DNA of 64,000 nucleotides from Nitrospirota bacterium (lineage in GTDB: Bacteria; Nitrospirota; JACRHL01). A program made the position numbers. Positions 52,301 through 64,000 of the stretch are shown here, one piece after another. Position 1 is the first letter of the stretch. Each line of letters opens with the position of its first letter. The stretch covers positions 1-64,000 of the forward strand of contig JAOUFN010000007.1 of NCBI GenBank assembly GCA_029858285.1, given 5' to 3'.

Positions 52301-55300
52301 GCCGGGGCGGAGCAGGGGAGATGGGGCAGGGCACCATCCCAATGGGCTTGGTGGGCCGACAGGGCAGGCCGCAGGCCCGCAAAAAGGAGCCGCAGTGAGC
52401 CGATTTACCCGACCGGACTGGATTTCCGCCCAGCGCGTGCAGTTGGACAGCCGCCTCGCCTTGGCCGATGCCGTCGGCCCGCAGCATGGCGTCAGCGCGC
52501 AGGAGCTGGCCGACCTGCTGCCCAACCTGCGGTCGGTACACGCGGAGCTTGGCCGCCGCCGCGCTAGCGGGGAGCTGGGTTTTTACCAGTTGCCAGGACA
52601 GGACATTACCCCGGTGCTGGAGGCGGCCAACTGGGTGCGGGATGGCTTCGACAATTTTCTGCTGGTGGGCATCGGCGGCTCGTCCCTGGGCCCCAAGGCG
52701 GCCCACGCTGCGCTGCGCTCTCCCCTGTACAACCTGCTTTCCCGCGAAGAACGTGGCGGGCCGCGCCTTTTCCTGCTGGAAAATATCGATCCGGTTACGG
52801 TATCTGCGGTGCTGCGGCATCTTGACCCGGCGCGCACCTGCGTCAATGTGGTGTCCAAATCCGGTGGTACGGCCGAGACCGCCGCTAACTACCTGGTGGC
52901 GCGGGAGTGGCTGGAAAAATCCGTCCAAAATCCCCGCGAGCACCTGATTGCCACCACCGACCCCGCCAACGGCGACCTGCGCCCGCTGGCGGAGAGGGAG
53001 GGGTGGCGGACGCTGCCGATTCCTCCTGACGTCGGCGGACGTTTTTCGCAGCTTGCGGCGGTGGGATTGCTGCCCGCAGCGGTGTGCGGTATCGATATTG
53101 CCGAACTTCTGGCCGGTGCTCACGACATGGACCTGCGCTGCGCCACCCCCGACCTGGACACCAACCCCGCCTATCGGCTGGCGGCCCTGCACTACCTGGC
53201 AGACACCCGCCACGGCAAGCCCATGGCGGTGATGATGCCCTATGCCGACGGCCTGCGGAGTCTGGCGGACTGGTTCGTGCAACTGTGGGCCGAAAGCCTG
53301 GGCAAGGAGCGCGACCTGTCGGGAAAAATCGTGCATACCGGCCAGACACCCCTGCCCGCGCTGGGGGCCAGCGATCAACACTCCCAGGTGCAACTGTTCG
53401 TGGAGGGGCCGAACGACAAGCTCATCACATTTTTGCGCGTGGAGCACTTTGCCGAGGCGGTCCAAATCCCCTCCCTGCATGGGGATGTGGGGTCCCTCGC
53501 CTATCTGGGCGGGGCCACGCTGGAGCGCCTGCTGAACGTGGAGCAGGCCGCCACCGAAGCGGTGCTGAGGGAGCGCCAGCGCCCCACCCTGCGGCTGACG
53601 GTTCCGGAATTGAACCCCTTTGCCATGGGCCAGTTGTTCTTTTTGTTCGAGGTGATGACCGCCTTTGCCGGTGGGCTGTACGGCATCAACGCCTTTGACC
53701 AGCCCGGCGTGGAGCACGGCAAGCGCCTGACCTATGGCGCCTTCGGGCGCGCGGGGTATCCGGACCTGATGGGGGGTGGCGGGAAATAATCCCGACCGCA
53801 GGCCGCGACAAAAAATCCGTGCCGTCCGTCCGCCCCGGTTGCGGTGGCGCTTCGCGGTTCGGGAAGCCAAATTGCACCCCCTGATCCGTCAATCGGTTAC
53901 ACGCCGGGGGTGGCGGAAATATCCTGGCGTGACAATGAGTTATGACGCCCTTTGGGGGTTTATCCGATTGCGATGTGGGGGGGCGTGCCCGCGCCGCACG
54001 GGGAGCGGGCCGGGCGGCATCGGGCGCTGCGCAGGCCGGGAAATGCAGGGTGTGGGAAAATCGCCCCGAAAAATGACCTAACCCGTTGATATGGCGGATA
54101 AGAATTCCGGGTGCGGAGGTTTTTAGCGGCGGTTTTTTCGCAGGTTTTCGGGGAAAGGGGCCACGAAAAAACAAAGGGTTCGGTGTCCAAAAGTCCGCGC
54201 TGTGGTGGCGGAAAGGCCGTTGCTAAGCAAAAAGGCGCGGCCAGATTCGCGAGGAACGCAGGCCAGCCACTGGTTTTACGCGAAAACCGCAGCGGGATGT
54301 GCCCGCCCTCCGGACATGTCCGGCGACTTACCGTGGGCACCCCCGACCTCCAACAGCAACTGGAAACCAGCCCAATGGATTTCCGCCTGCACGGGAATGA
54401 CATCAAGAGGGGGGCAGGTTAAGTGGAACTGTAGGTTGGGGGGAAGGTAGCGAAGCCTAACACCATGCCTATTGGGCCGAAAAAGCCAGCTAAGGAAATT
54501 AAAATGGTCAGTGTGAAACACACAGGTAATGCCATCATCCCCGTCAGCAAACAGTCCAAGATGCATCAGGCGTTCGATTTCCCCAACTCCGGGGACAAAA
54601 TACTTGATTGCCGAGAATGATCTCGAGGTCGGGTGGGATTTTGAGGCGGTAACCAGTTGCAATATCAGGGCAGTATTTTCTGCCCTGAAAAGCGAATGGA
54701 AGGGGTCCTCCTAACCTTCCGGGTCGCCCCGCAACGCCGCAATCAACGCGGGCACGGTTACAAACAAATCCCCCGCAATCGGATGCACGGTGACGCCGGG
54801 GCGCTTCATGCTCATCAGGGGGGCGTCCGGGTCGCGGTTGAAGGCGAACACCTGGGCGCGGGCGCCGATGTAGTCCACGTGCTGGGGCGCGCCGGAGATG
54901 CCCAGCGCAAACAGAATGCGCGGATTCACTCGCAGGCCGGTCTGGCCGATCTGATGATCCAGCCCCAGCAACCCCAACCCCTGCGTGATCTTGCGCGAGG
55001 CCCCCAGGTGCGGCGACAGGCCCAGTTCCCGCAGCGCCGCCACCAGCTCTTCGGCCATTTGCATGCCCGCCGGGGAGCCCGCGCCGTAGCCGATGTCCAC
55101 GATCACTTCGGCCTGGGAAAGGGTTTCCGCCGGCGGCGTGAAGGCGGCGTCGAAGTCGGTCTTTTTGTTCAGCCCGGCGTCGAAGGCCGACAGGGTGAAG
55201 CCCGAGGCCACCCCGCTCAGGGGGAAGTCCGCCCCTTCCGCCACCGTGAACAGCAGGGGCCGCGCCCCGTCCACCCGGAGCGACTGGGTCACGCGCCCCC

Positions 55301-61300: not shown

Positions 61301-64000
61301 GGCGCGGGGTCAGGGAGTTGGTCACCCAGCGCCCCAGCGTGCGCAGGGAGGCGGCCTTGCCGATGGCGTCGCCAATACGCAGGGCGGTGGCGGTTTTCAG
61401 GCCGTCCCCCAGCAGGCGCTGGATCATTTTTGGCGCGTAATAGGTGCGCATGAAGCGCCCCAGCAGCCACCAGCGGCGCCACGCCGGTTCGCTGGCGGTG
61501 AGGTAGCGCACCTTGCCGCACACCAGGTCCACCGAGGCGCCGAACAGTTCGCGGCTGTGCTCCATGTGCCGGGGCCACGCCGACAGGGCGTCCGCGTCCT
61601 TCCAGTAGCGGGACTGGCGCAACCGGTCCAGGTACAGGGCGGTGAGGTTGGCGGCGGAGAACGGCGAGCCGACCCGTGCCAGATCGCGGTACGCCTGGGC
61701 GAAATACAGGCCGGTGGCGGAGGCGGGGCCGGTGAAGTTGGGGCACGGGATGTCGATGCCCAGACCGCAGGCGGAACCGCCCACGGCCAGGCCGTCCTCC
61801 ACCAGGAGGGGTGACTGGGTGAGGCCGCCGGTGCGGATCAATTTGGTGCCGAAGGCCGACAGTTCGGCGCCTTCGAGGTATTCGGCGATACCCGGCATGC
61901 GCGTGACGAAGGCCAGCAGGTCGTCGTGGTTGCCCTTGAAGTTGCGCGCCAGATTGGTCAGCGGCACCACATAGCCCACCGACAGGGTGTCGCGGTTGGT
62001 ATAGAGGAACGCCCCCATGTTCAGGTGCAGGGAACGCCCCGCCAGGGATGGGTTGCGCAGCAGGATTTCGTAGGCCGCGCCGTCGCCGGGATTCAGGTTG
62101 AAGCGGCGCTCGATGTCGGCGGCGGGAAGGCGGAACACGGCCTTGACGCCCTGCATGAAGTCGGGGCTCTGCACCCGCTCCAGCCCCTCGTAGCGCACCA
62201 GATGCGAGGCGTCGCCCTCGGCCAGGAACACCACGTCGGCATAGGCCGGACCGCGGCTGGTGTGAACCCCCACCACGCGTCCGGAGCGGCGGATCAGCGA
62301 GGTGACGGTGGTGCCGGGCAGATAGGTGGCGCCCATGGCCCCCGCCCGCTGGGCCCACCACGGATCGAAGGCCGGACGCAGCACGGTGTAGCAGTTGCGA
62401 AAGGTGTCCGCATCCTGATGCGAGGCGCCGAACAGGGTTTCGCCGTCGGTGACCGCCAGTCCCCTGCGCACCACCGGGCGCTCGAAGGGCGCGCCGGACA
62501 TGGCGTCCGCTCCGAAAATGTCCGGATGCAGCAGATTTTCCGCGAAGTAGACGCAGCCGGACCAGTTTTCGGCCCCGGCGAACGCACCGGCCTCGAGCAG
62601 CAGAACCGAGGCGCCGGTGCGAGCCACGCCGGCGGCGGCGGTTACCCCGGCGGGTCCGGCACCCACCACAATGACGTCAAAATGAACCCGTTGCATAGTG
62701 CTCCCTCATCGGCCAGTTGGCCGGACGGGTCAATAGGAAAGACACATTCCATGTGTCCCCACGCGTCCCGGCCTGCATACCGTACGTCCGCGTACCTTCG
62801 CCATTGTAGCGGAGGTCTCGAAAAAGCACAGGGAATCGTGCCGGAAAGGCAAATTTGAGTAAAAGCCCGGATTTCCAGTGAATTATGCAACCGGGGCGGA
62901 GGCGGCGGCGCCGCTCCGGGGGGGTTACTCGGTAACCGACAGGTTGTCCCGGTGCACCACCTCGTCGTAGGCCCGGTGGCCGAGGATGGATTCGATTTTC
63001 GACGAGTGCTGGCCGCGGATGCGCTCGATGTCCGGGGCGCTGTAGTTGGAAAGGCCGCGGGCGATTTCCTTGCCGTCCGGCCCCGCCAGCACCACCCCGG
63101 CGCCCATCTCGAAGCGGCCGTCCACCCGGGTGATGCCGGAGGCGAGCAGGCTTTTTTTGCCGCCGCGCAGGGCCTCGGCGGCCCCGGCGTCCACATGGAT
63201 GGTGCCTTCCACCCGGGCCACGTGGCTGAGCCACTGTTTCTTGCGCGCCTTGCGGTTGCTTCGGGCCAGGAACAGGGTACCCACGTCCTCCCCGGCAAAG
63301 GCGGCGCGGATGGTGCCCGGCCGGGTGCCGTTCAACAGCAGGGTGGGGATGCCGATCTCCGCCAGCCGCTCCGCCGCCGCCAGCTTGGTGACCATGCCGC
63401 CGGTGCCCTCGTGGCTGCCCGCCCCCCCGGCCATGGCGCGGATTTCGGCGGTGATCTCCGGCACCACGTCCAGCCGCGTGGCCTCCGGGTGCTTGCGCGG
63501 ATCGGCGGTAAACAGCCCCTCCACGTCCGACAGGATCACCAGCAGGTCGGCCGCCACCACCGTGGCCACCAGCGCCGACAGGGTGTCGTTGTCGCCGAAC
63601 TTGATCTCTTCCACCACCACCGAGTCGTTTTCGTTGACGATCGGCACGATGCCCAGGGACAGCAGGGTGCCCATGGTGTTGCGGGCGTTCAGGAAGCGGC
63701 GGCGGTTGGCCACGTCGTCCTGGGTGAGCAACACCTGGGCGACGCGCAGGTTGCGGGCCTGAAAGTGTTTTTCGTATTTCCAGATCAGGCGGCTCTGCCC
63801 GGCGGCGGCGCACGCCTGGCGCACCGGAATGCCGGTGATTTCACGCAGCCCCAGCACCGCGACCCCGGCGGCCACCGCGCCGGAGGAGACGATCACCACC
63901 TCGCGGCCATCCGCCACCAGCTCAGCCACCTGTTCGGTGATGAGGGCAAAGCGCTCGGCCAGAAGGCCGGTCTTGCGGGACGAAATCACCCCGCTGCCCA

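What a model noticed while it worked through the whole genome (the two positions that open the first line are those of the whole stretch)
54711..62696. 2661-aa single-chain FixCX-ACAD-ACAD-EtfB-EtfA fusion
g01477 joins a whole acyl-CoA-to-quinone electron chain in one polypeptide: FixC-like ETF:quinone oxidoreductase, FixX-like ferredoxin, a degenerate acyl-CoA dehydrogenase domain lacking the catalytic YEG motif, an intact one (IYEGTNEVQR), then EtfB and EtfA. It is a conserved, widespread but undescribed family, present in the whole class and common in one other Nitrospirota family.
Evidence so far: Domains in order: FixC 2-391 (7koe_C, E 4e-30), Fer4_ETF_QO ~605-668, Acyl-CoA_dh_1 ~1055-1172 and 1780-1919, ETF beta ~2256-2366, ETF alpha 2434-2655. 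7 of 7 class genomes match, as one ~2610-2690-aa frame in 5 of 6 relatives (one with a single TAG), G004 split over contigs; 25 of 151 phylum genomes, 18 of 28 in family f5. About 90 of the 120 listed homologues are full-length 2600-2740 aa at 39-59% identity. Cys motif of the ferredoxin and E1906/E1910 invariant in 33 sequences; the first ACAD has no YEG. Three paper searches found only an EtfB-EtfA fusion.
(Added by a program. Inside this text positions count along the whole contig: contig position 1 is position 1 of the stretch shown here. "Call 12" and the like, gene names such as g00115 and contig names such as C1 are that model's own, and its searches are not shown. The text may have been shortened before it was handed on; [...] marks where a part breaks off. 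The agent that wrote the report below was given it as the finding of a first reader that could run no searches.)

Follow-up and report, generated by a model that had tools for sequence, protein, structure and literature searches.

The report
One-chain acyl-CoA-to-quinone oxidoreductase
One 2,661-residue bacterial protein joins an acyl-CoA dehydrogenase, its electron-shuttle flavoprotein and a quinone reductase, which are normally four to five separate proteins, and likely carries out the first step of fatty-acid breakdown on its own, passing the electrons to the respiratory quinone.

Summary
The gene is real. It is one 2,661-aa frame with six modules in the stated order, and it stays one chain in Nitrospirota, Acidobacteriota, Planctomycetota, Verrucomicrobiota and Gemmatimonadota.

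Three corrections:
(1) The first ACAD is not merely degenerate. It keeps the partner-subunit FAD motifs (RxQF, QxxGG) that the second ACAD has lost, in 217 of 217 scored sequences. The two probably form one FAD site inside the chain.
(2) The ferredoxin has one ETF-QO-type cluster, not FixX's two.
(3) EtfB lies at about 2074-2270.

Likely role: the protein is the host's only ACAD and only ETF, and the host has FadD-, FadI- and FadJ-like genes elsewhere. Of 40 fusion genomes, 39 have FadJ and none has E. coli-type FadE. Three close FadJ genomes without the fusion have that FadE instead. Bifurcation motifs are not conserved. It is therefore most likely a non-bifurcating, membrane-bound fatty-acyl-CoA:quinone oxidoreductase replacing FadE+ETF+ETF-QO. 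No activity has been measured.

The parts and chemistry are known. My four novelty searches found no paper on the fusion. This scan has already reported the family on other DNA at least eight times.

The parts
54711..62696 (-). Whole gene, 2661 aa, single frame
62701..62707 (-). Shine-Dalgarno-like GAGGGAG, 4 nt before the ATG
   Evidence: sequence
61380..62690 (-). FixC/ETF-QO-type FAD domain, aa 3-439
   Evidence: fold match 7koe_C TMt 0.86, 2gmh TMt 0.64
60897..61379 (-). Helical region aa 440-600 with a conserved hydrophobic helix at about aa 532-560; likely monotopic membrane anchor (inferred)
   Evidence: hydropathy peak in 39 of 41 rows; helices in the model
60612..60896 (-). Single [4Fe-4S] domain of ETF-QO type, aa 601-695 (C639, C663, C666, C669)
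60132..60554 (-). Predicted four-helix linker bundle, aa 715-855; poorly conserved, no known relative found
58797..60086 (-). ACAD1, aa 871-1300, VLCAD-type. Keeps RxQF (1078-81) and QxFGG (1149-53); lacks TEPxxGS, WITN and YEG. Inferred FAD-completing partner
56547..58664 (-). ACAD2, aa 1345-2050, VLCAD-type. Keeps TEPxAGSD (1598-1605), WITN (1712-15) and YEG with E1906; lacks RxQF and QxxGG. Two inserts: helical about 1466-1575, beta-rich about 1613-1700
55887..56477 (-). EtfB-like domain, aa 2074-2270; nucleotide-binding loop variable
54714..55724 (-). EtfA, aa 2325-2661: divergent N-terminal domain, then FAD domain II (2521-2661) with invariant electron-transfer-FAD residues

Best explanation
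This single chain carries FixC/ETF-QO, two acyl-CoA dehydrogenase folds, EtfB and EtfA, and likely works as a membrane-bound, non-bifurcating fatty-acyl-CoA:quinone oxidoreductase that performs the first step of beta-oxidation. Shown: the modules, their order, their conserved motifs and the single-chain state across phyla. Inferred steps: (1) ACAD1 and ACAD2 pair within the chain like a VLCAD dimer and bind one FAD, ACAD2 holding the ring and base E1906 and ACAD1 the ADP end. (2) Acyl-CoA made by FadD is oxidised to enoyl-CoA, which goes to FadJ/FadI. (3) The EtfA domain-II FAD carries electrons one at a time to the single [4Fe-4S] cluster and FAD of the N-terminal module. (4) That module, anchored by the helix at about 532-560, reduces quinone. 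Predicted content per chain: 3 FAD and 1 [4Fe-4S].
For: Reciprocal motif loss: in 217 of 217 scored sequences ACAD1 has RxQF and QxxGG but no YEG, and ACAD2 has YEGT but neither of the others. All 7 ordinary ACADs used as controls have all three. The same division of labour is described for CasC and ChsE4/5 (passages of PMC8399759; PMC11153573). The AF2 model of both ACADs as one chain has pLDDT 90 and pTM 0.90 over 1200 aa; its best fold matches are dimeric VLCAD/ACAD9/2z1q.

Genome context: the fusion is the only ACAD and only ETF-alpha in the 99.5%-complete host and the only ACAD in 4 of 4 family relatives tested. The host has a fadI-fadJ pair and a long-chain acyl-CoA ligase.

Co-occurrence: 39 of 40 fusion genomes have FadJ; in f5, 32 of 33 against 4 of 20 without the fusion. 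E. coli-type FadE occurs in 8 of 201 genomes, none with the fusion, and in all three f5 genomes that have full-length FadJ without the fusion. Fusion-negative G010 has a fadN-fadA-fadE-fadF-etfB-etfA operon.

Cofactors and acceptor: nine ET-FAD residues are invariant in 70 of 70, while bifurcation motifs are not. The host's only UbiA-family enzyme is 4-hydroxybenzoate-prenyltransferase-like, and no futalosine MqnA/D was found. This fits a high-potential quinone (PMC11874023 passages).
Against: No activity, cofactor or expression data exist. The gene never sits in a fad operon: none of 50 recurring neighbour ORFs was a beta-oxidation enzyme. Co-occurrence is among kin and one-way: 24 genomes outside f1/f5 have weaker FadJ-like matches without the fusion. 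Some hosts also have ordinary ACADs or ETFs (G040; 3 of 5 genomes of other phyla), so it may be specialised there. Two f5 hosts have the menaquinone pathway, where acyl-CoA to quinone is near equilibrium or uphill (acyl-CoA couple about -10 mV, recalled). No UbiB/MpqB hit was found in the host. This copy does carry the Arg of the RPxFGG position (R2462). The quinone site was not located, and the two ACAD2 inserts are unexplained.
Confidence: 0.72

Rival explanations
1. Same electron chain and direction, but specialised for another acyl-CoA (branched, cyclic, aromatic or steroid side chain) rather than ordinary fatty acids.
For: The known heteromeric and fused ACADs act on steroid side chains (PMC8399759 passages). 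ACAD2 has two large inserts of unknown role. One Acidobacteriota genome has two fusion copies plus ordinary ETFs.
Against: It is the sole ACAD in a 2.56-Mb genome with one FadJ. It alternates with E. coli-type FadE. Its fold is of the VLCAD class.
Confidence: 0.13
2. Reverse direction: a quinol-driven enoyl-CoA reductase used as an electron sink or for reversed beta-oxidation, like CaiA with FixABCX in carnitine respiration.
For: All steps are reversible. The N-terminal domain is closest to the YdiS/FixC models. FixAB is needed for anaerobic carnitine reduction, and YdiO is used as an enoyl-CoA reductase in engineering (passages). Menaquinol in f5 hosts would drive it downhill.
Against: The host appears to lack menaquinone synthesis, has a 4-HB-type UbiA and carries ccoN/ccoO-like oxidase genes. 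Its partners are catabolic-type FadD/FadI/FadJ.
Confidence: 0.1
3. A fused electron-bifurcating EtfABCX/Bcd-type enzyme that splits NADH electrons between ferredoxin and quinone or enoyl-CoA.
For: The closest solved relatives of the FixC and ETF parts are bifurcating complexes (7koe, 6fah, 4kpu). This copy has R2462.
Against: The Arg that is essential for bifurcation in T. maritima (PMC10734219 passages) is present in only 4 of 70 (9 of 41 in a second alignment). The RxGV Arg position is Glu in 70 of 70. The DGDTAQVG loop is variable, whereas 3 of 3 ordinary EtfBs in the control loci keep it. There is one Fe-S cluster only.
Confidence: 0.05

Closest known systems
Mitochondrial/proteobacterial chain VLCAD or ACAD9 -> ETF (EtfAB) -> ETF-QO (PDB 2uxw/3b96, 1efv, 2gmh)
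   Same: Same functional modules; VLCAD-type ACAD fold with C-terminal extension; single-cluster Fe-S motif; intact ET-FAD site.
   Different: One chain instead of four proteins. The ACAD pair is asymmetric, with one predicted site. The FAD domain is closer to FixC than to ETF-QO in sequence. The EtfB nucleotide loop is not conserved.
FixABCX/EtfABCX (Thermotoga maritima, 7koe) and E. coli YdiO + YdiQRST / CaiA + FixABCX
   Same: Same parts list (ACAD, EtfB, EtfA, FixC-like, ferredoxin-like). The best NCBIfam hits of the N-terminus are PRK10015 and FixC. YdiQR were proposed for anaerobic beta-oxidation, without experimental proof according to the review.
   Different: Those are separate genes. 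EtfX has two clusters, and T. maritima EtfABCX bifurcates from NADH. Bifurcation motifs are not conserved here.
CasC of Rhodococcus jostii (fused two-domain ACAD) and ChsE4-ChsE5 / ChsE1-ChsE2 heteromeric ACADs
   Same: The N-terminal ACAD lacks the catalytic Glu and is needed for FAD binding; the C-terminal one is catalytic (passages).
   Different: Those act on steroid side chains and carry no ETF or quinone reductase. Here both units are VLCAD-type with extensions.
Sulfolobus acidocaldarius fused EtfB-EtfA (PMC12042025)
   Same: EtfB followed by EtfA in one chain (passages).
   Different: It is bifurcating, with two FADs, and has no ACAD or quinone reductase attached.
Bacillus-type FadE + FadF / mycobacterial EtfD + EtfAB
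   Same: Same job in beta-oxidation; such an operon is present in fusion-negative relative G010.
   Different: EtfD/FadF is unrelated to ETF-QO (PMC13083937 passages), and the proteins are separate.

Membership tests
ETF:quinone oxidoreductase (ETF-QO / FixC type) | FixC/ETF-QO FAD fold | tested here: met
   profile E 3e-53 over all of FixC; model TMt 0.86 to 7koe_C and 0.64 to 2gmh
ETF:quinone oxidoreductase (ETF-QO / FixC type) | One C-terminal [4Fe-4S] motif CPxxVY...Cx2Cx2C | tested here: met
   217 of 217; aligns with 2gmh 526-570
ETF:quinone oxidoreductase (ETF-QO / FixC type) | Monotopic membrane anchor and quinone site | tested here: inconclusive
   hydrophobic helix in 39 of 41 rows; weak ETFQO_UQ-bd hits below cut-off in 2 of 18 relatives; site not mapped
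ETF:quinone oxidoreductase (ETF-QO / FixC type) | Quinone reduction by reduced ETF | not testable with these tools
   needs an assay
FixX/EtfX ferredoxin | Two [4Fe-4S] clusters | tested here: not met
   no extra CxxC set in 217 sequences; EtfX has two
Acyl-CoA dehydrogenase, VLCAD/ACAD9/FadE dimer class | TEPxxGSD, WITN and J-K loop Glu (YEG) | tested here: met
   ACAD2, 70 of 70
Acyl-CoA dehydrogenase, VLCAD/ACAD9/FadE dimer class | C-terminal helical extension | tested here: met
   ACAD2 fold matches; ACAD1 profile aligns with VLCAD 283-623
Acyl-CoA dehydrogenase, VLCAD/ACAD9/FadE dimer class | Symmetric homodimer, each unit with all FAD motifs | tested here: not met
   motifs are split between the two units
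Heteromeric / CasC-type ACAD | One unit with the catalytic Glu, the other without it but keeping the partner FAD motifs | tested here: met
   by motif; assignment of RxQF and QxxGG to the partner subunit is recalled and consistent
Heteromeric / CasC-type ACAD | Descent from the steroid ACAD clade; steroid substrate | not tested
   no tree with Chs/Cas sequences; fold matches point to the VLCAD class instead
Canonical (non-bifurcating) ETF | EtfA domain-II FAD residues | tested here: met
   R2568, Q2582, Q2585, T2586, S2601, Q2605, H2606, N2620, D2622 in 70 of 70
Canonical (non-bifurcating) ETF | EtfB fold with structural AMP site | tested here: inconclusive
   fold homology E 4e-27; only G2186 and D2108 invariant around the site, the rest of the loop variable
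Canonical (non-bifurcating) ETF | Freely diffusing heterodimer | tested here: not met
   fused to ACAD2; the only 2 shorter hits look like truncated copies
Bifurcating ETF (group 2, FixAB/EtfAB) | RPxFGG arginine in EtfA | tested here: not met
   Arg in 4 of 70 and 9 of 41; present in this copy; human canonical ETF also has an Arg here
Bifurcating ETF (group 2, FixAB/EtfAB) | RxGV and GxxSPTxV motifs in the beta subunit | tested here: not met
   Glu at the Arg position in 70 of 70; SPTxV falls in a profile gap against 6fah_B
Bifurcating ETF (group 2, FixAB/EtfAB) | NADH-dependent ferredoxin reduction | not testable with these tools
   needs an assay

The most novel reading that the evidence does not exclude
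The protein is a 'complex II for fatty acids'. Its ETF would no longer be a diffusible carrier: EtfB and EtfA domain I would be a nucleotide-free scaffold, and domain II would swing inside one chain between the ACAD flavin and the quinone reductase's Fe-S cluster. Its structure would then show both the ACAD-ETF and the ETF-to-ETF-QO docking states in one particle. The reduced relatives that keep only the quinone reductase on an ACAD helical scaffold may be partner subunits.
Probability: 0.35. Interest if true: 0.82.

Novelty: new variant of a known kind. Interest (0 to 1): 0.63.

Why it matters
It is a fourth way for bacteria to do the first step of beta-oxidation, beside E. coli-type FadE, Bacillus-type FadE-FadF-ETF and the ACAD/ETF/ETF-QO chain. 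All three bacterial forms alternate within one Nitrospirota family. Databases label it only 'acyl-CoA dehydrogenase' or 'ETF-QO', so fatty-acid use by these uncultured lineages is easily misread. A tethered chain is a ready cryo-EM model for how ETF hands electrons to ETF-QO, the human disease enzyme; to my recollection that complex has not been solved. It is also a one-gene part for engineering beta-oxidation or its reversal.

Tried and rejected
- Artefact or chimera: rejected. The gene is one frame in dozens of independent genomes of five phyla, and one contig spans it.
- Recoding of the TAG in G006: rejected as a family trait. It is a single TGG-to-TAG change at Trp364 in one genome.
- Stand-alone forms: a 'shorter' search with aa 396-700 gave 2 hits among 7998 candidates, both apparently truncated copies. 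This is not proof of absence.
- Neighbourhood gave no substrate clue (proB/obg, aspS, dnaJ/clpB, amidohydrolase, UDG, varying by lineage).
- FadL-family genes occur in 115 of 201 genomes and do not discriminate.
- ESM Atlas gave nothing usable for the linker bundle or the ACAD2 inserts.
- VIA-align fold searches were never accepted because the machine was busy.
- No RNA holder was listed.
- The careful tree did not finish; the quick tree was used.
- PMC4489319 was not held. No supplements were read; ETF classification tables in them or in subscription papers may list such fusions.
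Full report
Observation. The window holds one open frame of 2661 codons at 54711-62696 on the minus strand, preceded by a ribosome-binding motif. A 25.9-kb public contig at 42x covers it without insertions or deletions; it may be the window's own source, so it is not independent. Pfam, PDB and NCBIfam searches give FixC-like FAD domain, ETF-QO Fe-S domain, two ACAD C-terminal domains and ETF-alpha in that order.

Family. The protein search listed 120 of 428 hits. 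About 90 are 2600-2740 aa at 39-59% identity, and 17 are 2798-2958 aa with the same domain set where checked. The genome-collection scan kept 65 loci from records titled Nitrospirota, Acidobacteriota, Planctomycetota, Verrucomicrobiota, Gemmatimonadota and one Betaproteobacteria bin, and estimated about 940 matching stretches. Where the contig is long enough the gene is usually one frame; a few copies are frameshifted (L035, L041, L063, L073) or carry a stop (L016). A quick tree of 41 rows puts Acidobacteriota, Verrucomicrobiota and Gemmatimonadota each on one side of a strong branch, splits Planctomycetota, and nests the Betaproteobacteria record inside Nitrospirota. This fits an old fusion, but no root or transfer test was run. 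In the host phylum 40 of 201 genomes at least 85% complete carry it: 7 of 7 in f1, 33 of 53 in f5, none in the other families sampled. The gene has no conserved neighbours.

N-terminal module. The AF2 model of aa 1-900 has pLDDT 85 and pTM 0.86 and matches T. maritima FixC (TMt 0.86) and pig ETF-QO (TMt 0.64) best. The ferredoxin part has four cysteines in the ETF-QO pattern in 217 of 217 scored sequences and no second set. EtfX has two clusters (PMC10734219, passages). A hydrophobic helix near aa 532-560 appears in 39 of 41 rows. Since the FAD and Fe-S domains flank it, it is more likely a re-entrant anchor than a membrane span (inference). Residues 715-855 form four predicted helices with little conservation.

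The two ACADs. The best fold matches are the dimeric VLCAD/ACAD9/2z1q class, and the ACAD1 profile aligns with VLCAD through its C-terminal extension. In ACADs the FAD is held by two subunits, the partner giving RxQF and QxxGG (recalled). Of 219 distinct sequences of 2250-3100 aa held, 217 were scored; two were dropped for lacking an exact anchor motif, and some genes are counted twice, as protein hit and as locus. ACAD1 has RxQF and QxxGG in 217 and YEG in 0. ACAD2 has YEGT, and RxQF or QxxGG in 0. Seven of seven ordinary ACADs from the same loci set have all three (alignment blocks). The units are therefore complementary halves of one predicted site. Reviews describe the same arrangement for CasC and ChsE4/5 (PMC8399759 and PMC11153573, passages).

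ETF. Nine FAD-binding residues of EtfA domain II are invariant in 70 of 70, while EtfB and EtfA domain I are among the least conserved modules. The arginine needed for bifurcation in T. maritima is present in 4 of 70 and 9 of 41 rows of two alignments, the RxGV arginine is glutamate in 70 of 70, and the nucleotide loop varies. Against this reading, the window's own copy has the arginine (R2462), although human canonical ETF has one too. I read the ETF as non-bifurcating; whether it binds AMP is open.

Role. In the 99.5%-complete host the fusion is the only ACAD and the only ETF-alpha. The genome has one fadI-fadJ pair, a second thiolase, one long-chain acyl-CoA ligase and acetyl-CoA synthetase. 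In four of four family relatives it is again the only ACAD; G040 has one more. Of 40 fusion genomes, 39 match FadJ at E 1e-40; the exception is 87% complete. In f5 the figures are 32 of 33 against 4 of 20. Twenty-four genomes of other families have weaker FadJ-like matches and no fusion, so the link is one-way. E. coli-type FadE (PF09317) is in 8 of 201 genomes, none with the fusion, including all three f5 genomes with full-length FadJ and no fusion. Fusion-negative G010 has a Bacillus-type fadN-fadA-fadE-fadF-etfB-etfA operon. Kin are not independent, so no P value is given. In five genomes of other phyla the fusion was the only ETF in two; three had ordinary ETFs as well and one had two fusion copies.

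Direction. The host lacks hits to futalosine MqnA/D and has no spare crotonase or ligase for MenB/MenE. Its single UbiA-family protein is closest to 4-hydroxybenzoate prenyltransferases, as in the methylplastoquinone pathway of aerobic Nitrospirota (PMC11874023, passages). A UbiB-like gene, which that paper finds in all aerobic members, was not found. A high-potential quinone would make acyl-CoA oxidation downhill. Two f5 hosts have the menaquinone pathway, where the reverse direction remains possible.

Comparison and novelty. It works like ACAD -> ETF -> ETF-QO and has the parts list of E. coli YdiO + YdiQRST (PMC9329746 and PMC10318755, passages). It is not a member of bifurcating EtfABCX on the motifs tested. 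Four searches aimed at a fusion found no description of it: 0 papers; 14 listed; 5 listed; 0 papers. The one relevant listing is the Sulfolobus EtfB-EtfA fusion (passages read). Other papers were seen only as listings, PMC6678751 and PMC13083937 as passages, and subscription literature and supplements were not searched. Earlier agents of this scan reported the same family in at least eight other windows; these are not independent support.

Verdict. The gene is real, conserved and architecturally undescribed in the literature I could search, with probably ordinary chemistry. It is a new variant of a known kind, interest 0.63, with confidence 0.72 in the beta-oxidation mechanism.

Noticed in passing
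proteins P0264, P0267, P0276, P0279, P0291: Reduced relatives of 1409-1713 aa in five separate 50% clusters. They keep FixC and the Fe-S motif, but both ACADs are cut down to helical parts without FAD or catalytic motifs; some end in EtfB and none has EtfA domain II. Possibly partner subunits or decaying paralogues; hosts unnamed.
   Followed up: partly
protein P0296: Unrelated 2974-aa giant joining methylmalonyl-CoA mutase, B12-binding, a FadE-type ACAD, three HpcH aldolase/citrate-lyase stretches and MaoC dehydratase domains.
   Followed up: no
L016:11093-11095 (G006): Single TGG-to-TAG change at conserved Trp364 splits the gene in this one genome; error or recent nonsense change.
   Followed up: partly
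window 49579-52111: ccoN/ccoO-like genes (COX1 and FixO matches) plus a small membrane ORF: a cbb3-type oxidase-like cluster.
   Followed up: no
G000:C24:100298-101005 (L102): The only UbiA-family gene is of the 4-hydroxybenzoate type. No MqnA/D or UbiB hit was found, so the host's quinone pathway may be an incomplete or variant methylplastoquinone route.
   Followed up: partly
L091 (G010:C3:62000-81999): Complete Bacillus-type fadN-fadA-fadE-thioesterase-merR-fadF-etfB-etfA operon in a Nitrospirota genome without the fusion.
   Followed up: partly
L024: Record titled Betaproteobacteria whose fusion nests inside the Nitrospirota clade; mis-binning or transfer.
   Followed up: no
G201 (genome of L057), contigs C14 and C15: Two full-length fusion copies (2922- and 2959-codon frames) in one Acidobacteriota genome.
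   Followed up: no
window 54276-54662 (-): 128-aa ORF just downstream in a lower-GC stretch, no Pfam match.
   Followed up: no
L054, L061, L071 and P0251-P0262: Shorter family members of 2285-2480 aa (L054, L061, L071 are Verrucomicrobiota; the P hosts are unnamed) lose parts of ACAD1 and the ACAD2 beta insert but keep the core motifs; easier expression targets.
   Followed up: partly
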